From assembly GCA_028876655.1 (NCBI GenBank), contig JAGWRA010000189.1, forward strand, positions 1-60,507: a DNA stretch of 60,507 nt, read 5' to 3'. The stretch is from Acidobacteriota bacterium. GTDB taxonomy: Bacteria > Acidobacteriota > Vicinamibacteria > Vicinamibacterales > CAVVIG01. The position numbers were made by a program, and so were the translations under genes. Within the stretch, counting starts at the first letter, position 1. Every line of letters begins with the position of its first letter. Below are positions 23,280 through 36,612 of this stretch, one piece after another. The notes below the pieces were generated by a model that made no database searches, was not told where the DNA came from, and was given only the letters and a program-made list of their open reading frames with translations.

Positions 23280-23314
23280 AGGCGATGGGCTATAGGCGGT
23301 AGGCGATAGGGCTG
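23280..23314 (+). repeat. tandem heptamers AGGCGAT GGGCTAT AGGCGGT AGGCGAT AGGGCTG
   Basis: Five in-phase 7-nt units starting 13 nt after the stop codon. Closely related to 27459-27486. Confidence 0.75.
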
Positions 23315-23871: not shown

Positions 23872-23880
23872 GGGGAGCGA

Positions 23881-23978
23881 GTTGTCAGTTATCAGTCGTC
23901 AGTTGTGAGTTCTCAGTTCTGAGTTGTTGACTCTCCGTCAAGACTCACGACTCAAAACTGAAAACTGAGAACTATCCC
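23881..23978. repeat. heptamer array GTTNTSA x7 followed by its inverted complement; long imperfect hairpin between convergent genes
   Basis: GTTGTCA GTTATCA GTCGTCA GTTGTGA GTTCTCA GTTCTGA GTTGTTG | ACTCTCC GTCAAGA CTCACGA CTCAAAA CTGAAAA CTGAGAA CTATCCC. AGTTCTCAGTT (23908-18) pairs with AACTGAGAACT (23962-72). Confidence 0.85.
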
Positions 23979-28816: not shown

Positions 28817-29671
28817 CTACCACCCGGCGCCGCCGCCGCCCCCGCCGCTGGCTCCGCCCCCGAACCCGCCAAAGCCGCCGCCGAACCCGCCGCCCGATCC
28901 GCCGAATCCCCCGAACCCGCCGAAGCCGCCCCCGAACCCGCCCCCGAACATGCCGATGCCGCTCGACCACATGCCACCGCGCCAGCCGCCGCGCGGGCCG
29001 CCGCCGTGGCGTCCGCCGATGGCCCGGCCGATGAGGGCGATGCCGACGATGATGAGGACGAGCGCCCAGAGCGGCAGGCCCTGCGGCTGGGGCGGCGCGG
29101 GCTCGGGCGGCTGCACGCCGTCGAGCGCCACGTGCCTGGCCTGCGCGATCCGCCCGATGATCCGGGTCGTCCCCGCCAGCAGCCCCTGGCCGTACTCCCC
29201 CTGCCGGAAGTCCGGCACCATGAACAGGCGGCTCGTCTCGCCCGAGAAGCCGTCGGTGACGTACGGCTCGAGGCCGTAGCCCACCTCGATCCAGACGCGG
29301 TGTTCTCTGAGCGAGAGGAGGATCAGCAGGCCGTTGTCCTTGCCCTTCTCGCCGATGCCGCGGCCGTGGTTCTCGAAGAGCTTGACGGCGTACTCCTGGA
29401 TGTCGCCGTACGGGGCGAAGGTCGGGATGGTGGCGACCACGACGGCGTCGCCCGTGGCCGCCTGGAGCTTCCGGATCTGGCTGGTCATGGCCGCGGCGCT
29501 GGCGGCATCGATGACATGGGCGAAGTCGTTGACCGGCTGCGTGAGCGCGGGCAGCGCATCGTCGGCGCTCCGGGCCAGGGCGGGCCGGGCCGCGAGGCAG
29601 AGCGCCAGCAGCAGCAGGGCGAGCGCCCGCCGTCCGGGGATCGAGGTGAAGCGGGCTACGACGCGTGCCAT
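28817..29671 (-). CDS. TPM-domain protein (YgcG-like) with a TM segment and a Gly-rich tail
   Basis: VNDFAHVIDAASAAAMTSQIRKLQAATGDAVVVATIP, a hydrophobic segment, and GGFGGGFGGFGG repeats. This is the classic LemA neighbour. Confidence 0.8.
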   Translation of the reverse strand: MARVVARFTSIPGRRALALLLLALCLAARPALARSADDALPALTQPVNDFAHVIDAASAAAMTSQIRKLQAATGDAVVVATIPTFAPYGDIQEYAVKLFENHGRGIGEKGKDNGLLILLSLREHRVWIEVGYGLEPYVTDGFSGETSRLFMVPDFRQGEYGQGLLAGTTRIIGRIAQARHVALDGVQPPEPAPPQPQGLPLWALVLIIVGIALIGRAIGGRHGGGPRGGWRGGMWSSGIGMFGGGFGGGFGGFGGFGGSGGGFGGGFGGFGGGASGGGGGGAGW

Positions 29672-30444: not shown

Positions 30445-31410
30445 ATGCACCTGCGGCAACTGAAGATCGGCTGCTTCGGCGGAGGCACGGGGCTGCCGAG
30501 CCTGCTCGGCGGACTGAAGACGAACCCCTGGCTCGACGTCAACGCCGTGGTCACGATGTTCGACAGCGGCGGGAGTTCGGGACAGCTGAAGGACGAGCTG
30601 GGGGTGCTGCCGCCGGGCGACGTGCTGAAGTGCACGCTGGCGCTGTCGCGCAACGAGCGCGAGGCGCGGCGGGTGCTGCTGGCCCGGCTGCCGACCCTCG
30701 AGCACCCGCGGCTGAGCGGGCACACCGGCGGCAACCTGCTGCTCTCGATGATGCAGCGCTACAGCGGCGACTTCCTGGCGGCCGTCGACGGGCTGCGCGC
30801 GCTGCTCGGCTGTTCGGGGCGCGTCTGGCCGATCAGCGTCGATCACGCCAGCGTCTGCGCCGAGTACGGCGACGGATCGCAGACGCGCGGCGAGGTGGAG
30901 GTGGACGCCGGGCAGACGCTCGGCCGCTTCGTCAAGCGCATCTGGCTCGAGCCGGAGCCGACGATCCTGCCCCAGGTCGCCGACGCCATCCGCGGATTCG
31001 ACGCCGTCGTCATCGGGCCGGGCAGCTTCTACACCAGCCTGATGCCGATCCTGCTCGTCAAGGGGGTGCCGGAGGCGCTCGGGGCGGTGCGCGGGCCGGT
31101 GATTCTCGTCGCGAATCTGCTGACCGAAGGGCGCGGGATGCGTGGCTTCACCGCGGCGCACGCCGTGGCGCGCGTGGAGGAAGCGATCGCCCGCCGGGTC
31201 GACGTCGTGATCGCCAACACGCAGGTCCCGTCACCGGAGACCCTCGCCCGCTATGCCGCCGAACACAAGCAGCCGCTGGACGTCGGCGACCTGCCGAAGT
31301 ACTGCGAGGTGGTGGAAGGGGAGTTCTGGCGCCACGAAATCGCCCGTCACGACCGCCGCCGCCTGGCCTACGCGGCGTGGAGCGTGCTGTCGCGGCGGCT
31401 GCTGGACTGA
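30445..31410 (+). CDS. YvcK/CofD-family (gluconeogenesis factor-like) protein
   Basis: IGCFGGGTGLPSLLGGLK and VTMFDSGGSSGQL are signature CofD/YvcK motifs. Confidence 0.85.
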   Translation: MHLRQLKIGCFGGGTGLPSLLGGLKTNPWLDVNAVVTMFDSGGSSGQLKDELGVLPPGDVLKCTLALSRNEREARRVLLARLPTLEHPRLSGHTGGNLLLSMMQRYSGDFLAAVDGLRALLGCSGRVWPISVDHASVCAEYGDGSQTRGEVEVDAGQTLGRFVKRIWLEPEPTILPQVADAIRGFDAVVIGPGSFYTSLMPILLVKGVPEALGAVRGPVILVANLLTEGRGMRGFTAAHAVARVEEAIARRVDVVIANTQVPSPETLARYAAEHKQPLDVGDLPKYCEVVEGEFWRHEIARHDRRRLAYAAWSVLSRRLLD

Positions 31411-31416
31411 CACCTG

Positions 31417-31507
31417 TCACGTGCAATGTGCCGCGTGCAGGGTGCAAGGTGCGGCTTGTCCGTGCCGCGTGCGCAACACCCGTTGCGCATTGCCCGTTGC
31501 CCGTTGC
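31417..31507. repeat. 13 in-phase heptamers (NNNNGTG x5, then NNGTTGC-type units) between convergent genes
   Basis: TCACGTG CAATGTG CCGCGTG CAGGGTG CAAGGTG CGGCTTG TCCGTGC CGCGTGC GCAACAC CCGTTGC GCATTGC CCGTTGC CCGTTGC. Contains the hairpin TGCGCAAC-accc-GTTGCGCA (31470-31489). Confidence 0.85.
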
Positions 31508-31525
31508 GACGCCCGGGAGGGCGCC

Positions 31526-32269
31526 TCATCTCTTCTTCTTTGCCACCCGCTTCCGCGTCGTCGTCTTCTTCGCGGCCGTCTTCCGGGCGGCGTTCGCCGC
31601 GCGGCCGGCTTTCTTCCGCGCCGCGCGCTCCAGCACCTCGGCGAGCAGCTTGCCGGCCACGCCGCCCCGGGCCGGGCGCTTCGATTCCCAGATGGCCGGG
31701 GCCTCGGCGCCGACGATGTCCTCGAAGTCGCCGCCGCTCTTGACGCTGAGCGGGGCGAAGGTGGCGATGTCGATCGGTCCGGCCCACGCGTCACGGTGCT
31801 TGATCAGCAGCCAGCCGTTGCTCCCCCCGAAGCGCGTCCGTACCAGCACCCACGAGCCCTTCAGCTTGTAGCCGTTCAGCCGGAACTTCAGGTCCCCCTT
31901 CCGCAGCGCCGCATCCACATCGTCGACTTCCGGCTCCCACGTGCCGCGGTCCCACAGCATGACGATGCCGGCGCCGTACCCTTCGGGAATCACCTCTTCG
32001 AAGTCGCCGTACTCGATCGGGTGATCCTCCACCTGGGCGGCGAACCGCTTCACGGCCGGATCGATGGACGGCCCCTTCGGGACGGCCCAGGACAGCAGCA
32101 CGCCGTCGTGCTCGAGCCGGAAGTCGTAGTGCAGATGGCTGGCCAGATGCTTCTGGACGCAGAAGAAGAGGCCCTTCGACGGGCGGCGGCGCCGCGGACT
32201 GCCAGCCGGCTCCGGCGATTTCGTGAAGTCGCGCTTCGCGCGGTAGTGCTCGAGGGGCATGGCGGGCAC
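31526..32269 (-). CDS. stand-alone LigD-type 3'-phosphoesterase domain protein with a Lys/Ala-rich basic tail
   Basis: YRAKRDFTKSPEP, FCVQKHLASHLHYDFRLE, WAVPKGPS and EDHPIEYGDFEGVIP-like motifs. C-terminus KKAGRAANAARKTAAKKTTTRKRVAKKKR. Confidence 0.8.
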   Translation of the reverse strand: MPAMPLEHYRAKRDFTKSPEPAGSPRRRRPSKGLFFCVQKHLASHLHYDFRLEHDGVLLSWAVPKGPSIDPAVKRFAAQVEDHPIEYGDFEEVIPEGYGAGIVMLWDRGTWEPEVDDVDAALRKGDLKFRLNGYKLKGSWVLVRTRFGGSNGWLLIKHRDAWAGPIDIATFAPLSVKSGGDFEDIVGAEAPAIWESKRPARGGVAGKLLAEVLERAARKKAGRAANAARKTAAKKTTTRKRVAKKKR

Positions 32270-32284
32270 GGCTCCGGCGGCGGA

Positions 32285-33592
32285 TCAGGACTCGGCCAGC
32301 GCCGCGCGCTCCTCGGCGTCCACGCGCGCGATGGTCCGCTTGATGGACGGCGTCATCAGCACGAGCAGCACGCCGGTGACCGCCAGGATGCCGACGACGA
32401 GCAGGAAGAACCGGCTGTGCGGCATCCGGGTCCAGTAGGCCCCGATCGAGCCCGACAGGTACCCGCCGATCGACAGGCTGACGAACCAGCCGCCCATCAG
32501 CAGGCCGCGGCTGCGGGGCGGCGCGACGCGGTTGACCAGCGAGAGTCCCATCGGACTGAGCGCGATCTCGCCCATGGCGATGACGATGTAGGCCCAGACG
32601 AGCCACTGAACCGACACGCGGCCGGTGTCGCCGCCGATGAGGCCGGCCCAGGCCATCATGCCGAAGGCGCCGGCCACGAACAGGACGCCGATGAGCATCT
32701 TGACGGGCGTCGAGGGTTCGGCGTTCCGCCGCTGCAGCCACATCCAGGCCCAGACGAACAGCGGCGACAGGAGGATGACGCCCAGCGGCTCGATCGCCTG
32801 GAACTTCTCGGGCGCGATGCTGGTCAGCGTGTTGTCGCGGGCCCAGAAGGTCAGCGTGAAGCCGTTCTGGTAGAAGGCCAGCCAGAAGACGGCCGAGATG
32901 ACGAAGACCATCAGCAGCGTGATCACGCGGGCGCGGGCCTCGGCGGGCGAGACCGCCCGCGCCTCGCGCGAGGTCTCCGCGACCTTCCCGGCCGCGTCGC
33001 CGAGGTAGCGGCGGAAGCCGATGAAGACGGCCAGCGAGATCAGCATCGCCCCGGCCGCCGACGCGAACGCCACGCTCCAGCCGTAGTGGATCCGGAACCA
33101 GGACACGGTCAGGGGCGAGATGAACGCGCCGATGTTGATCCCCATGTAGAAGATGTTGAAGCCGGCGTCGCGCAGCCCCGGGTTGTCGCGATACAGGTTG
33201 CCGACGATCGTCGAGACGTTGGGCTTGAGCAGCCCGCTGCCGCAGGCCAGGAGGGTCAGGCCGGCGTAGAAGAACGGGAGCGACTCGACACCCAGCACGA
33301 GGTGGCCGAGCATCATGAGCGCGCCGCCGATGACGACCGCGCGGTAGAAGCCGAGCACGCGATCGGCGAGGAAGCCGCCGACCAGCGGCAGGAAGTAGAC
33401 GCCCGCGATGTAGCTGCCGTACACCTGGCCGACGTGGGCCACCGAGAAGTGGAGCTTCTCGTTCATGTACAGCGCGAGGATCGCCATCATCGAGTAGAAG
33501 CTGTACCGCTCCCACAGTTCGGTGAAGAACAGGACGTAGAGGCCCGGCGGATGGCGGCGGGAGGCCGCCGGCGCGCGCGAAGCTGTCGGCAT
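32285..33592 (-). CDS. POT/PTR2-family proton-dependent peptide transporter (MFS)
   Basis: FTELWERYSFYSMMAILALYM and GGFLADRVLG are signature POT motifs. Start at the ATG at 33592. Confidence 0.85.
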   Translation of the reverse strand: MPTASRAPAASRRHPPGLYVLFFTELWERYSFYSMMAILALYMNEKLHFSVAHVGQVYGSYIAGVYFLPLVGGFLADRVLGFYRAVVIGGALMMLGHLVLGVESLPFFYAGLTLLACGSGLLKPNVSTIVGNLYRDNPGLRDAGFNIFYMGINIGAFISPLTVSWFRIHYGWSVAFASAAGAMLISLAVFIGFRRYLGDAAGKVAETSREARAVSPAEARARVITLLMVFVISAVFWLAFYQNGFTLTFWARDNTLTSIAPEKFQAIEPLGVILLSPLFVWAWMWLQRRNAEPSTPVKMLIGVLFVAGAFGMMAWAGLIGGDTGRVSVQWLVWAYIVIAMGEIALSPMGLSLVNRVAPPRSRGLLMGGWFVSLSIGGYLSGSIGAYWTRMPHSRFFLLVVGILAVTGVLLVLMTPSIKRTIARVDAEERAALAES

Positions 33593-33620
33593 GCGGGGGA
33601 GTCTAGCACGGGGAGGCCTG

Positions 33621-33711
33621 TCACGTGCGACGTGCCGGGGGCCGGGTGCGACGTCGCACGGACAGGTTCGCACGTGGCACGTGGCACGTTGCGCGTGGCA
33701 CATTGCACGTG
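33621..33711. repeat. 13 in-phase heptamers dominated by GCACGTG in a divergent promoter region
   Basis: TCACGTG CGACGTG CCGGGGG CCGGGTG CGACGTC GCACGGA CAGGTTC GCACGTG GCACGTG GCACGTT GCGCGTG GCACATT GCACGTG. The first half folds as CCTGTC-a-CGTGCGACG / CGTCGCACG-GACAGG. Confidence 0.85.
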
Positions 33712-33724
33712 ACAGACTTTCCCC

Positions 33725-35140
33725 GTGCACACCCTCCTCCTCTCCACCTACGAGATGGGCCGGCAGCCGTTCGGGCTGGCATCGCCGGCGGCGTGGCTGG
33801 AGCGGGCGGGGCTCGCGGTCCGGTGCGTGGACCTGTCGCGCGACCGGCTGCTCGACGAGGCGATCCGCGAGGCGGACCTCGTCGCCTGGTACCTGCCGAT
33901 GCACACGGCGACCCGGCTGGCGGCGCCGGTGATCGAACGCGTCGGCCGCGTGCAGCCCCGGGCGCACCGCTGTGCCTACGGCCTCTACGCGCCCCTGAAC
34001 GCCTCGTTCCTCCGCGCCCGCGGCATCGACACGATTCTCGGCCCCGAGTTCGAAGCCGACCTGCTCGCGCTCGCCCGGCGCCTGGCGGACATCACGCCCA
34101 CGTCGCCGGAGGCCACACCGAGCGACGGACAGGTGAATCCGGAGCGAGGCGTCGGCGTGCCCCGCCTGCACTTCGTGCAGCCCGATCGCCGCGGCCTGCC
34201 GCCGCTCGATCGGTACGCCACCGTGCAGATGGACGATGGGACGAAGCGGGTCGCGGGCTATACGGAGGCCAGCCGCGGCTGCCGTCATACCTGCCGGCAC
34301 TGCCCGATCGTGCCGATCTACGGCGGCACCTTCCGTATCGTCCAGCCCGAGGTGGTGCTGGCCGACGTCCGGGCGCAGGTGGCGGCCGGCGCGCGCCACA
34401 TCACCTTCGGCGATCCCGACTTTCTGAACGGTCCGCGCCACGCCGTGCGGATCGTGGAGGCGCTGGCGCGTGAGCATCCCGGCGTCACCTACGACATCAC
34501 CACGAAGGTCGAGCACCTGCGGCGCCATGCGGCGGTGCTGCCGCGTCTGCACGAGACGGGCTGCCTGTTCGTCACGACGGCGGTCGAGGCAGTCGACGAT
34601 CGCATCCTGTCCCGGCTCGAGAAGGGACACACACGCGACGACTTCGTCCGCGCCGTCGAACACTGCCGGGCGATCGGGCTCGCGCTCGGCCCGACCTTCG
34701 TCGCCTTCAACCCGTGGATCACGCGCGACGGGTATTGCGATCTGCTGGAGACGATCGCGGCGCTCGATCTCGTCGAGCACGTCGCGCCGATTCAGCTCGC
34801 CATCCGGCTGATCGTCACGCAGGGGTCGCGGCTGCTCGAGTTGCCCGAGATCCGCGAGCAGGTCGGGCCGTTCGATGCCGCGGCGCTGTCGTACCCGTGG
34901 CGGCACGTGGACCCGGCGGTCGACGCGCTGCAGCAGACGGTGATGACGCTGGTCGGCACCCGGCCGGGCGCGCCGCGCCGCGAGGTGTTCGAGGCGGTCC
35001 GGCAGCTCGCCCATGCCTGCGCTGGCAGCCGGCCGCCCGCGCCGCGCCGGGAAGCCCGCGCCCGCGCCACGGTCCCGTACCTCAACGAGCCCTGGTACTG
35101 TTGAGCGGAGCCGAATGAAGAGCAGGTGGCTCTGATCTGA
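33725..35140 (+). CDS. B12-binding-domain radical SAM protein, probable selenoprotein with a C-U-A-E-P tail (TGA 35102-35104 recoded)
   Basis: CRHTCRHC gives the CX3CX2C motif. The ORF-track stop TGA directly follows ...LNEPWYC. The next in-frame codons are GCG GAG CCG (A-E-P), then NEEQVALI and TGA at 35138-35140. If the TGA is not recoded, the CDS ends at 35104. Confidence 0.7.
35106..35134 (+). promoter_or_regulatory. candidate bacterial SECIS hairpin
   Basis: CGGAGCC (35106-12) pairs with GGCTCTG (35128-34): 7 bp including one G-U, with a 15-nt loop containing GGT. It starts 2 nt after the TGA. Confidence 0.4.
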
Positions 35141-35150
35141 TGATTGATAC

Positions 35151-35315
35151 GTACGACGTGCCACGTGCGAGGTACGACGTGCGAAACGTACGGCGTACCA
35201 CCGGACGACGTGCGAATCGTATGACGAACTCCGATGGCGGTGCGAGCCGTACGTCGTACTTCTGTACGTAGTTACATCCCGCTCGTCGTACCTCGCACGT
35301 CGTACGTGGCACGTC
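35151..35315. repeat. long inverted repeat assembled from shuffled heptamer modules GTACGAC / GTGCCAC / GTGCGAG
   Basis: Left arm 35151-35185 reads GTACGAC GTGCCAC GTGCGAG GTACGAC GTGCGAA. The reverse complement of the right arm 35285-35312 reads GTGCCAC GTACGAC GTGCGAG GTACGAC. Confidence 0.8.
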
Positions 35316-35331
35316 TCTTCACCACACCAAC

Positions 35332-36612
35332 ATGCCCCATCGGGCCCCCCGCCTCCTCCTCCTCGCCACCACGACCGGCTACCAGACCCGCGCGTTCGGG
35401 GAGGCGGCGGGGCGGCAGGGAGTGGCGCTGGCGTTCGGGACCGACCGGTGCGATCGGCTGGACGACCCCTGGCGCGATGCCGCGGTGCCGATCCGCTTCC
35501 ACCGGGAAGACGAGGCGGTGGCGGCGCTGGTCGACGCGGCCGCCCGGGAGCCGATCGACGGGATCCTGGTCGTCGGCGATCGGCCGGTCGTGATTGCCGC
35601 CCGCCTGGCCGCGGCGCTCGGATGGCCCGGCCATCCGCCCGCGGCCGCCGCGGTCAGCCGTGACAAGCGGCTGACGCGCGAGGCGCTGGCCGGCGCGGGC
35701 CTGCCGGTGCCGTGGTTCCGCACGGTGCCCCTCGATACCGATCCCGTGTCGCTCGCCGGCACGGTGCCGTACCCGTGCGTCGTCAAGCCGCTGGCCCTGT
35801 CGGGCAGCCGGGGCGTGATCCGTGCCGACGATCCCGCCACGTTCGAGCAGGCGTTCGAGCGTCTCGGGCGGTTGCTCCGGTCGACGGACGTCCGGGCCCT
35901 GCACGACCCGGCCCTCGACTTCGTGCAGATCGAGGGGTTCATTCCGGGGCAGGAGTACGCGGTCGAGGCGCTCCTCGACCGTGGGCGGCTTCGCGTGCTG
36001 GCGATCTTCGAGAAGCCCGATCCGCTCGACGGCCCGTTCTTCGAGGAGACGATCTACGTGACGCCGCCGCGCGTGATGGCCGCGGTGACCGACGCCATCG
36101 AGTCCGCCGTCGCGGCGGCCGCCCGCGCCATCGGCCTGTACCACGGGCCGATCCACGCCGAGTGTCGCGTCGGTGCCGGCGGCATCTTCGTCCTCGAGGT
36201 GGCGGCGCGGCCGATCGGCGGGCTGTGCGCGCGGGCCCTCCGCTTCGAGGCGCCCGGCCTGTCCGGGCCGTGCTCGCTGGAGGATCTGCTGGTGCGCCAC
36301 GCCATCGGCCAGCCGACCGACGGCTGGCGCCGCGAAGCGGCCGCGGCCGGCGTGATGATGATCCCGATTCCGCGTGCCGGGCTGTATCGCGGCGTGGACG
36401 GGGCAGACGAGGCGGCGGCCGTCGACGGGATCGAGGCCGTCGTGCTGTCGGCACGTCCCGACCAGTCCCTGGTGCCGCTGCCCGAGGGCGCCAGTTACCT
36501 GGGCTTCATCTTCGCGCGCGGCGGGACGACCGCCGCCGTGGAGGCACGGCTGCGCGAGGCGCACGGGCGCTTGCGAGTCCGGATCGACCCGGTCCTGCCG
36601 GTCGTCCGCTGA
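35332..36612 (+). CDS. ATP-grasp domain ligase (amino-acid/carboxylate-amine ligase-like)
   Basis: VSRDKRLTREALAGAGLPVP, PCVVKPLALSGSRGVIRA, IEGFIPGQEYAVEAL and GPIHAECRV give a typical ATP-grasp layout. There is no obvious RBS before the ATG at 35332. Confidence 0.75.
   Translation: MPHRAPRLLLLATTTGYQTRAFGEAAGRQGVALAFGTDRCDRLDDPWRDAAVPIRFHREDEAVAALVDAAAREPIDGILVVGDRPVVIAARLAAALGWPGHPPAAAAVSRDKRLTREALAGAGLPVPWFRTVPLDTDPVSLAGTVPYPCVVKPLALSGSRGVIRADDPATFEQAFERLGRLLRSTDVRALHDPALDFVQIEGFIPGQEYAVEALLDRGRLRVLAIFEKPDPLDGPFFEETIYVTPPRVMAAVTDAIESAVAAAARAIGLYHGPIHAECRVGAGGIFVLEVAARPIGGLCARALRFEAPGLSGPCSLEDLLVRHAIGQPTDGWRREAAAAGVMMIPIPRAGLYRGVDGADEAAAVDGIEAVVLSARPDQSLVPLPEGASYLGFIFARGGTTAAVEARLREAHGRLRVRIDPVLPVVR

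What the first reader, a model, noticed from the sequence alone, without database searches (positions are those of the whole stretch)
31415..33716. Two 13-unit heptamer arrays with a 19-nt perfect inverted match flank a two-gene segment (LigD-PE and POT transporter)
Arrays at 31417-31507 and 33621-33711 are each exactly 13 in-phase heptamers (91 nt). Both begin CCTG-TCACGTG-C.A.GTG-CCG. In addition, CTGTCACGTGCAATGTGCC (31414-31432) is perfectly reverse-complementary to 33697-33715. The 2.3-kb segment carrying the 3'-phosphoesterase and peptide transporter genes is therefore bracketed by related repeats in both direct and inverted orientation. The right-hand array contains six tandem GCACGTG units (the CACGTG palindrome). 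It lies in the divergent promoter region between the transporter gene and the radical SAM gene, where it could act as a multi-site protein-binding platform rather than a terminator.
Basis: seen in the sequence. Interest (0 to 1): 0.65.

Follow-up and report, generated by a model that had tools for sequence, protein, structure and literature searches.

The report
Heptamer-repeat hairpins, not a gene cassette
The two repeat arrays and their 19-base inverted match are real, but they are two of about 280 fast-changing 7-base-repeat elements that fill the gaps between genes in this soil acidobacterium, and they do not mark the two genes between them as a movable or invertible unit.

Summary
Observation confirmed. 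Both arrays are 13 in-phase heptamers. The 19-mer occurs exactly twice in the 4.19-Mb genome, in inverted orientation.

Interpretation mostly not supported. The genome (Vicinamibacterales, 70% GC) holds about 283 lag-7 arrays, 87% of them intergenic. About 40% have an inverted partner array in the same spacer.

R (33610-33723) is a complete 51+51-nt hairpin that fills the divergent spacer. L (31414-31510) is a chimera. Its left half is an inverted copy of R's right arm and centre. Its right half is a canonical arm of the genome's commonest family, CAATA-(CNCRTTG)n-CGAC, which has 71 arms. The "direct" resemblance exists only because R is self-complementary.

A third related hairpin (35146-35317) brackets the radical SAM gene in the same way. 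Gene order and orientation (CofD, LigD-PE, POT, radical SAM) are the same in six relatives. Their spacers are empty or hold different heptamers. Contigs from three other environments reproduce both junctions exactly and show no inversion joint.

This is a new member of the known, still unexplained class of bacterial heptamer repeats (STRR, Xanthomonas GGGAATC).

One by-product is worth attention. All four PF05635 (23S-rRNA-IVS protein) genes of this genome are bracketed by inverted heptamer arms. In five genomes, the arm unit is the heptamer amplified in that genome and absent from the others searched.

The parts
30445..31410 (+). CofD-family gene. Its TGA stop lies 3 nt before the L element.
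   Evidence: Pfam PF01933, E 7.7e-65; own codon-model gene calls
31414..31458 (+). L element, left arm: terminus CTGTCAC, then GTG, then degenerate CAAKGTG heptamers. It contains the 19-mer (31414-31432). It is an inverted copy of R's right arm.
   Evidence: 39 nt 85% complementary to 33677-33715 (pair I2); exact 19-mer; alignment A1
31457..31470 (+). L centre (TGTCCGTGCCGCGT), the reverse complement of R's centre at 33651-33664. It is offset by 8 nt from the arm match, which is an indel of about one unit.
   Evidence: pair I24 (14 nt, 86%); offsets computed
31474..31510 (+). L right arm: CAACA + CCCGTTG CGCATTG CCCGTTG CCCGTTG + CGAC. It is a canonical arm of the genome's most abundant heptamer family (71 arms).
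   Evidence: row C148 +31478; BLAST hits to more than 25 other spacers; pattern count of 67 in G000
31510..31525 (-). Short GC hairpin (GGCGCCCTCCCGGGCG) directly after the LigD-PE stop, with no U-tract.
   Evidence: fold; no terminator-like site found
31526..32269 (-). Stand-alone LigD 3'-phosphoesterase domain gene with a Lys/Ala-rich tail. It is an ancestral resident, not cargo.
   Evidence: PF13298, E 8.5e-42; synteny
32285..33592 (-). POT/PTR2 peptide transporter gene. It is an ancestral resident.
   Evidence: PF00854, E 1.8e-55; synteny
33600..33605 (-). TAGACT, a -10-like box 7 nt before the POT ATG (leaderless-type geometry). The block GAGTCTA(G/C)CA is conserved in relatives.
   Evidence: sequence; relatives; genome-wide TANNNT peak 6-9 nt before start codons
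33610..33660 (+). R element, left arm (CCTGTCACGTG CGACGTG CCGGGGG CCGGGTG CGACGTC ...). It includes the 2-mismatch direct copy of the 19-mer at 33618-33636.
   Evidence: pair I1 (51-nt arms, 73% complementary)
33673..33723 (+). R element, right arm: GCACGTG-type heptamers ending in CACGTGACAG. It contains the reverse complement of the 19-mer (33697-33715).
   Evidence: whole spacer folds at -84 kcal/mol as RNA (z -6.5) and -43 kcal/mol as DNA (z -4.8)
33713..33718 (+). CAGACT, a -10-like box 6 nt before the radical SAM GTG. ACGTGACAGACT is conserved in the same-genus relative.
33725..35140 (+). Radical SAM gene. This gene is itself bracketed by R and the next hairpin.
35146..35317 (+). Third related ACGTG-type heptamer hairpin (arms 35146-35190 and 35273-35317, 80% complementary). 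One stretch is 22 nt 91% complementary to R (33668-33689).
   Evidence: pairs I2, I8, D3

Best explanation
L and R are two members of a genome-wide population of intergenic heptamer-repeat elements, similar to cyanobacterial STRR and the Xanthomonas GGGAATC repeats. Each element is a run of degenerate 7-nt units, and often it is followed by its reverse complement, so the spacer can fold into a long imperfect hairpin.

R is a complete hairpin. It fills the 132-nt gap between the -10-like boxes of two divergent genes that look leaderless. L is a mosaic. Its left arm and centre are an inverted copy of R's right arm and centre, including the 19-mer. Its right arm belongs to the genome's commonest family, CAATA-(CNCRTTG)n-CGAC.

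Shown:
- Arrays change by whole 7-nt units.
- Families are specific to each genome searched.
- Orthologous spacers in relatives hold other units or none.
- Neighbouring spacers share sequence about three times more often than distant ones.

Inferred:
- The L-R identity comes from local copying between neighbouring arrays (template switching or gene conversion), which happened after the split from the sister species.
- The elements are selfish or neutral structural repeats with no function specific to LigD-PE or POT.
- When L is transcribed, in the 3' ends of two convergent genes, it acts at most as a 3' stem-loop.
- R is probably not transcribed.
For: - **Lag-7 excess.** 283 lag-7 arrays were found, against 3-11 for lags that are not multiples of 3. 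245 of the 283 are intergenic, and they fall into 70 unit types.
- **Inverted partners.** 39% of arrays have an inverted partner (at least 16/21) in their own spacer, against 5% in a random spacer.
- **R hairpin.** z -6.5 and -5.5 as RNA on the two strands, z -4.8 as DNA.
- **L's right arm.** It is one of 71 arms with conserved CAATA and CGAC boundaries and unrelated flanks. The outer ends of these arms face a stop codon in 47 of 70 cases, at a median of 19 nt, against a 42% baseline.
- **L is an inverted copy of R over about 57 nt**.
- **Neighbour bias.** 22 spacer pairs less than 3 kb apart share similarity, against 7.5 expected.
- **A third related hairpin** lies in the next spacer.
- **Synteny** is conserved in six relatives. 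The same-genus relative has a GGAATGA hairpin (dG -90.7, z -10.7) at the L position and no significant hairpin at the R position.
- **Specific to this genome.** CNCRTTG x4 gives 67 hits here, 0 in the same-genus genome, and 0-4 in 119 other genomes of the order.
- **Unit-wise change.** Run X3 carries a 7-nt insertion (AAAACTG) in the array at 23953. This and a 12-nt in-frame coding deletion were the only indels seen across 15 kb.
- **L and R are stable.** They are identical, and their junctions unchanged, in contigs from three other environments.
- **Literature.** Heptamer SSRs are over-represented in many bacteria and form inverted pairs in Xanthomonas (PMC4692102, PMC4679880).
Against: - L itself does not fold better than shuffled sequence (z -0.9 and -1.6), so "hairpin element" holds for R and for the families but only weakly for L.
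- Neutral slippage alone does not explain why the same 5-6 unit variants recur in mixed order in all 71 arms, why arms typically have 4 units, or why the boundaries (CAATA, CGAC) are conserved. These features suggest a constraint or an active copying process.
- The preference for sites just after stop codons could reflect a function at RNA 3' ends.
- ACGTGACAGACT at R's right end is conserved in the sister species, so part of R overlaps a functional promoter.
- No transcript data could be obtained.
Confidence: 0.78

Rival explanations
1. The heptamer arrays, including L's right arm, are gene-less partners of resident PF05635 cassettes. A cassette is a 23S-rRNA-intervening-sequence protein (four-helix-bundle) gene bracketed by inverted heptamer arms. 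Under this reading each cassette defines one heptamer family, which is then spread or homogenised across the genome, rather as RAYT relates to REPIN but without a known transposase. This adds a mechanism to the best explanation and does not contradict it.
For: - All four PF05635 genes of G000 are bracketed by inverted heptamer arms (20/21, 20/21, 19/21, 18/21). The baseline for at least 19/21 is 12 of 3129 genes.
- Their arm units are the two top-ranked array families, the AACTCAx group, and the rare AGGCGAT type. One of these is L's CNCRTTG family. The AACTCAx and AGGCGAT types match the window arrays at 23880, 23281 and 27460.
- The arms hit 66, 61, 50 and 5 other loci. The gene interiors hit none.
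- The cassette downstream of the ComEC-like gene is at the same place in the sister species, but there its arms are GGAATGA. GGAAYGA x3 gives 47 hits there and 0 here. CNCRTTG x4 gives 67 hits here and 0 there.
- Three further genera give the same result, with 304, 291 and 233 hits only in the genome that carries the cassette.
- In print, the Coxiella IVS carries the same gene family inside a stem with strain-variable tandem heptamers (PMC4990558).
Against: - The direction of cause is open. A cassette may simply sit in, or acquire, whatever hairpin family is abundant.
- Several G000 families have no cassette in the 97%-complete assembly: GGTCTYC, AATCCCC and the ACGT types to which R and L's left arm belong.
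- No enzyme, no target-site duplication and no movement was seen.
- Checks recorded in earlier notes of this scan priced the mobile-insert claim at only 40-50%.
Confidence: 0.33
2. R is a multi-site binding platform for a transcription factor, with the CACGTG palindromes as sites, that co-regulates the divergent POT and radical SAM genes.
For: R covers the region upstream of both -10-like boxes. It holds four exact CACGTG palindromes. The promoter-proximal ACGTGACAGACT is conserved in the sister species.
Against: - The units are not conserved. The sister species has GGGGCGC and GGACGTN units, and two other relatives have short spacers without an obvious array.
- A 7-bp spacing puts successive sites on different faces of the helix (established B-DNA geometry).
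- The same kind of array occurs in hundreds of unrelated spacers, mostly after stop codons.
Confidence: 0.1
3. The 19-39-nt inverted repeats make the LigD-PE and POT segment an invertible or mobile cassette.
For: There is a perfect 19-nt inverted match, which extends to 39 nt at 85%, and it flanks exactly two genes.
Against: - No recombinase or transposase gene lies in or beside the segment.
- Orientation and neighbours are identical in six relatives.
- No strand-change joint appears in five runs from four environmental samples (soil, sediment and two wastewater), and contigs from three of those samples cross the junctions in the reference orientation.
- 19 bp is below the roughly 25-bp minimum usually quoted for RecA recombination in E. 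coli (own knowledge).
- The neighbouring gene is bracketed in the same way.
- There is no target-site duplication (sequence).
Confidence: 0.03
4. R is a contingency (phase-variation) repeat. Gain or loss of 7-bp units would tune the two divergent promoters, as the 7-bp repeats upstream of hmw1A do in Haemophilus influenzae.
For: Arrays in this window do vary by one unit between strains (23953). R lies within promoter distance of both genes. A precedent is in print (PMC8262952).
Against: R's units are degenerate (77% matches), which lowers slippage. R is identical in contigs from runs X1, X3 and X4, that is two environments. Contigs would hide rare variants.
Confidence: 0.05

Closest known systems
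Intergenic heptameric simple-sequence repeats: cyanobacterial STRR, Xanthomonas GGGAATC and Nostoc GGGGAYT repeats (Rehm et al. 2015, PMC4692102; Mrazek 2007 as cited there), and TAACTGA repeats of Beggiatoaceae (PMC4679880)
   Same: Both are tandem 7-nt units, almost all intergenic, at hundreds of loci per genome. Length and sequence vary widely between close relatives at the same spacer. Some occur as inverted pairs able to form stem-loops. Function is unknown.
   Different: Here about 70 unit types coexist in one genome. Families have conserved arm boundaries and a typical size of 4 units. Inverted pairing is common (about 40%). The lineage is Acidobacteriota (Vicinamibacterales), for which I found no published description.
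ORF-bearing 23S rRNA intervening sequences (Coxiella burnetii IVS with the S23p/PF05635 ORF; Warrier et al. 2016, PMC4990558)
   Same: Both have a long stem made of inverted repeats that include tandem heptamers, and the copy number varies between strains. The same gene family (PF05635) sits in the loop of four such hairpins elsewhere in this genome.
   Different: L and R carry no ORF. They lie between protein-coding genes, not in rRNA. RNase III processing was not tested.
REP / REPIN elements with RAYT transposases; BIME mosaics of E. coli
   Same: Both are dispersed, hairpin-forming intergenic repeats that lie mostly after genes. Both have a mosaic build from a few modules and families specific to a species. 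The family also flanks a resident gene.
   Different: This genome has no Y1/RAYT transposase. The arms are tandem 7-nt arrays rather than a single 20-40-nt palindrome. The flanked gene is a small four-helix-bundle protein with no known catalytic activity.
Invertible DNA switches (fim, hin/gin-type)
   Same: Both have short inverted repeats flanking a segment next to promoters.
   Different: There is no recombinase, no second orientation in relatives or metagenomes, and the "segment" is two conserved housekeeping-type genes.

Membership tests
Intergenic heptamer SSR / STRR-like repeats | Head-to-tail repeats with a 7-nt period | tested here: met
   Lag-7 identity is 0.57 in L and R against 0.27-0.29 in shuffles. 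Tandem Repeats Finder reports period 7 at 31479-31507 and 33670-33711.
Intergenic heptamer SSR / STRR-like repeats | Many dispersed, mainly intergenic loci in the same genome | tested here: met
   283 arrays, of which 245 are intergenic.
Intergenic heptamer SSR / STRR-like repeats | Unit number and sequence vary between strains and close species | tested here: met
   A one-unit insertion lies at 23953 in run X3. Orthologous spacers have different units or none. L and R themselves were invariant in the runs examined.
REP/REPIN-RAYT | A RAYT (Y1 transposase, PF01797) gene in the genome, flanked by the repeat | tested here: not met
   There is no PF01797 match in the 97%-complete genome. The same search rings in 6 of 14 control genomes.
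MITE / transposon-borne cassette | Terminal inverted repeats plus target-site duplication, with filled and empty sites | tested here: not met
   No direct duplication flanks L, R or the 31414-33715 segment (sequence). The genes are present in the same order in relatives without arrays.
Invertible DNA switch | Site-specific recombinase nearby and both orientations present in populations | tested here: not met
   The neighbouring genes are CofD, LigD_N, PTR2 and Radical_SAM. No strand-change joints were seen. Rare variants cannot be excluded from contig data.
PF05635 / IVS-type hairpin cassette | A PF05635 ORF in the loop of the inverted heptamer arms | tested here: not met
   The loops of L and R are 12-25 nt with no ORF. 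The four PF05635 genes lie on other contigs.
PF05635 / IVS-type hairpin cassette | Excision of the stem by RNase III | not testable with these tools
   No RNA runs hold this stretch.
Intrinsic (Rho-independent) terminator | GC-rich stem-loop followed by a U-tract | tested here: not met
   No terminator-like site lies in either spacer. L folds no better than shuffled sequence.
Described RNA families (Rfam 15) | A match at or near a family's gathering score | tested here: not met
   Only three chance-level matches to eukaryotic RNA families (two microRNA precursors and one lncRNA region), far below their gathering scores.

The most novel reading that the evidence does not exclude
Each resident PF05635 four-helix-bundle gene (the "23S rRNA intervening-sequence protein") may define one heptamer family. 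Under this reading, the gene's inverted arms and the dozens to hundreds of gene-less arrays of the same unit, including L's right arm, form one system. The protein, or the cassette transcript, would read, copy or homogenise its own 7-nt word. That would explain why arm units and genome-wide families switch together between sister species while the cassette stays in the same place. It would give a source for STRR-type heptamer repeats across bacteria.
Probability: 0.3. Interest if true: 0.8.

Novelty: new member of a known kind. Interest (0 to 1): 0.33.

Why it matters
For the finding itself, the result clears up a false lead. Related repeats on both sides of genes are a routine by-product of repeat-rich spacers in this lineage. 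They should not be read as cassette or switch boundaries.

More broadly, Vicinamibacterales offer a dense, fast-evolving natural data set for the old unsolved question of why bacteria accumulate 7-nt repeats. The match between PF05635 cassette arms and the heptamer family amplified in the same genome was seen in five genomes of four genera. It turns that question into a concrete, testable protein-repeat hypothesis.

Tried and rejected
- **Rfam scan of 31000-35500:** only chance matches.
- **Sigma-70 promoter and terminator scan:** nothing in either spacer.
- **RAYT / Y1 transposase search:** none found, so REPIN membership is rejected.
- **RNA sequencing runs for the locus:** none available.
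- **Exact 19-mer in JGI metagenome contigs:** three hits, all chance matches inside unrelated lower-GC (46-59%) contigs.
- **A universal boundary motif (CTGTCA/TGACAG) for all arrays:** not supported. It is enriched at most 4.5-fold, in 8 of 490 boundaries, so it is specific to a subfamily.
- **L as a self-complementary hairpin:** fold energy is no better than for shuffles.
- **Conserved structure at the orthologous spacers:** rejected. Hairpin strength swaps between the L and R positions in the sister species.
- **First gene caller:** my first crude GC3-based caller produced chimeric ORFs. I replaced it with a codon log-odds caller. Its start codons are approximate, and it misses low-GC genes such as the PF05635 genes.
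Full report
**Observation**

The sequence is as described. CTGTCACGTGCAATGTGCC lies at 31414-31432, and its exact reverse complement lies at 33697-33715. A 2-mismatch direct copy lies at 33618-33636. Shuffles of the window predict 0.01 such matches. The whole 4.19-Mb assembly (281 contigs, 70.3% GC) holds only these two exact copies, and seven sites with up to three mismatches.

Both 91-nt stretches split into 13 in-phase heptamers. Lag-7 identity is 0.57 in each, against 0.27-0.29 in dinucleotide shuffles, and no other lag stands out.

The flanking genes are:
- CofD, 30445-31410 (+)
- a stand-alone LigD 3'-phosphoesterase, 31526-32269 (-)
- a POT/PTR2 transporter, 32285-33592 (-)
- a radical SAM gene, from 33725 (+)

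**Context: a genome-wide repeat population**

Relatives of the transporter identify the organism as a Vicinamibacterales (Acidobacteriota subdivision 6) genome assembled from a metagenome.

- Windows with strong lag-7 periodicity number 283. Lags that are not multiples of three give 3-11, and coding-type lags 6, 9 and 12 give 79-92.
- 245 of the 283 are intergenic, although only about 10% of the genome is.
- They fall into about 70 unit types.
- They occupy 18% of convergent spacers, 9% of tandem spacers and 5% of divergent spacers.
- 39% of arrays have a reverse-complement partner in their own spacer, against 5% in a random spacer.
- One BLAST network links 514 of 2023 spacers.

**Anatomy of R**

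The 132-nt divergent spacer is one long imperfect palindrome with arms at 33610-33660 and 33673-33723. It folds at -84 kcal/mol as RNA (z -6.5). The other strand gives z -5.5, and DNA parameters give z -4.8.

The outermost pairs of the stem include TAGACT, 7 nt before the POT ATG, and CAGACT, 6 nt before the radical SAM GTG. Genome-wide, TANNNT peaks sharply 6-9 nt before start codons (166 genes). That is the geometry of leaderless transcripts. R therefore probably lies between two promoters and is not transcribed. This last step is inference.

**Anatomy of L**

L is a mosaic of two parts.

Its right part (31474-31510) reads CAACA-CCCGTTG-CGCATTG-CCCGTTG-CCCGTTG-CGAC. This is a textbook arm of the genome's commonest family. 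That family has 71 arms of three to seven CNCRTTG units, typically four. Most are preceded by CAATA and often followed by CGAC, and the flanks beyond are unrelated. The outer ends of these arms face a stop codon in 47 of 70 cases, at a median of 19 nt, against a baseline of 42%.

Its left part (31414-31472) is an inverted copy of R's right arm and centre. The arm match is 39 nt at 85% complementarity and includes the 19-mer. A 14-nt centre match follows, offset by 8 nt, which is about one unit.

The direct resemblance to R's left arm (38 nt, 82%) follows from R being self-complementary.

L as a whole folds no better than shuffled sequence.

**Is the two-gene segment special?**

It is not.

- The next spacer holds a third ACGTG-type hairpin (35146-35317) that matches R (22 nt, 91% complementary). 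The radical SAM gene is therefore bracketed in the same way.
- Genome-wide, 12 of 3129 ordinary genes have flanks matching at 19/21 or better in inverted orientation. Sequence reading suggests these include EF-Ts-, Hsp20- and HypC-like genes, though they were not scanned against Pfam.
- Spacers less than 3 kb apart share similarity about three times more often than average (22 observed against 7.5 expected). This points to local copying between neighbouring arrays.

**Comparative genomics**

The order and orientation ATP-grasp, radical SAM <> POT, LigD-PE >< CofD is kept in the same-genus genome and in five other Vicinamibacterales. Two of these carry an extra 3 kb between LigD-PE and CofD.

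The spacers themselves are not conserved.

- *L position.* The sister species has a GGAATGA/TCATTCC hairpin (dG -90.7, z -10.7). Another relative has GGAACGA x10. Another has no spacer at all.
- *R position.* The sister species has GGGGCGC and GGACGTN units and no significant fold (z -0.5). Two other relatives have short spacers without an obvious array.

Only the promoter-proximal blocks survive: GAGTCTAGCA, and ACGTGACAGACT...CCCC-start.

CNCRTTG x4 occurs 67 times here, 0 times in the same-genus genome, and 0-4 times in 119 other genomes of the order.

**Populations**

Assembled contigs from soil, sediment and wastewater runs cover L with both flanks (31245-31536, 31392-31762). Contigs from the soil and sediment runs cover R with both flanks (33570-33813, 33124-33975). 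All show 0 differences and no strand-change joints.

Across 15 kb the only indels are two. One is a 7-nt insertion, AAAACTG, which is exactly one unit, in the heptamer array at 23953. The other is a 12-nt in-frame deletion in a coding repeat.

So arrays do change by whole units, but L and R were stable in the samples available. Contigs hide rare variants.

**What it is**

These are STRR-like intergenic heptamer repeats. The class is known from cyanobacteria, Xanthomonas (including inverted pairs) and Beggiatoaceae, and was noted as over-represented in many bacteria (PMC4692102, PMC4679880). Its function is unknown. I found no paper describing them in Acidobacteria.

They are not REP/RAYT elements, because the genome has no Y1 transposase. 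They are not a described RNA family. They are not canonical terminators.

**By-product: a link to PF05635 genes**

I followed a lead in earlier notes of this scan. The genome has four PF05635 genes, which encode the 23S-rRNA intervening-sequence protein, a four-helix bundle. The four are only 28-49% identical to each other, and their GC content is 0.59-0.62.

All four are bracketed by inverted heptamer arms (20/21, 20/21, 19/21 and 18/21 complementary). Their units are:
- CAAYGNG/CNCRTTG, which is L's family
- GGGCTNC, the rank-1 family
- GAGTTNT, the type of the window array at 23880
- AGGCGAT-type, the type of the window arrays at 23281 and 27460

The arms hit 66, 61, 50 and 5 other loci. 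The gene interiors hit none.

In the sister species, the single PF05635 gene sits at the same place, after the ComEC-like gene. The two proteins are 56% identical, and the neighbouring gene products are 68% identical. Its arms, however, are GGAATGA. That unit gives 47 hits there and 0 here.

In three further genera, the arm unit of the best PF05635 cassette gives 304, 291 and 233 hits in its own genome and 0-1 hits in seven other genomes.

This reciprocal specificity is what ties REPINs to RAYTs. The direction of cause is still open, and several families here, including the ACGT type of R, have no cassette. I rate it 0.3 as a mechanism and report it as the novel case.

**Verdict**

The cassette or switch reading is rejected. 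The binding-platform reading is unsupported. The feature is an ordinary pair, in fact a trio, of heptamer-repeat elements in a lineage where they abound.

Noticed in passing
G000 contigs C18:6393-6761, C182:27636-28001, C270:12137-12451, C245:5512-5883 (outside the window): All four PF05635 (23S rRNA IVS protein) genes are bracketed by inverted heptamer arms. The arm units are the two top-ranked array families, the AACTCAx group, and the rarer AGGCGAT type. The genes have low GC (0.59-0.62), and my codon-model gene caller missed them.
   Followed up: yes
G004 (= genome of L019) C13:41617-42100, locus L102; also G122, G129, G139: The arm unit of the PF05635 cassette is the heptamer amplified in that genome and essentially absent from the other genomes searched. 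GGAAYGA x3 gives 47 hits in G004 and 0 in G000. GGCTCGT gives 304 hits, TAGCYGT 291 and GGCTCTC 233, each only in its own genome.
   Followed up: partly
window 23953 (array 23938-23973): Contigs of run X3 carry a 7-nt insertion, AAAACTG, which is exactly one repeat unit. Base changes also lie inside arrays at 23914 and 35283.
   Followed up: partly
genome-wide; window 33600-33605 (-) and 33713-33718 (+): TANNNT boxes peak 6-9 nt before start codons in about 166 genes. This suggests many leaderless mRNAs in this organism, and the POT and radical SAM genes fit the pattern.
   Followed up: partly
window 35146-35317: A third ACGTG-type heptamer hairpin follows the radical SAM gene. It is related to R, so three consecutive spacers carry one local family.
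   Followed up: yes
window 28926: A 12-nt in-frame deletion appears in contigs of run X3. It lies inside a coding region with 9-, 12- and 24-nt tandem repeats (28830-28949).
   Followed up: no
L001:8013-11274 and L003:8114-11197: Two relatives carry about 3 kb of extra DNA between LigD-PE and CofD, where this genome has only the L element.
   Followed up: no
L027 (Planctomycetota), L033/L037/L045 (Flavobacteriales), L021, L055, L057 (other Acidobacteriota): Heptamer arrays lie next to the POT gene in distant phyla too. Some are inverted pairs, for example GGTGAGT / ACTCACC in L027.
   Followed up: no
My gene caller stops at 35104. I did not re-test this.
   Followed up: no
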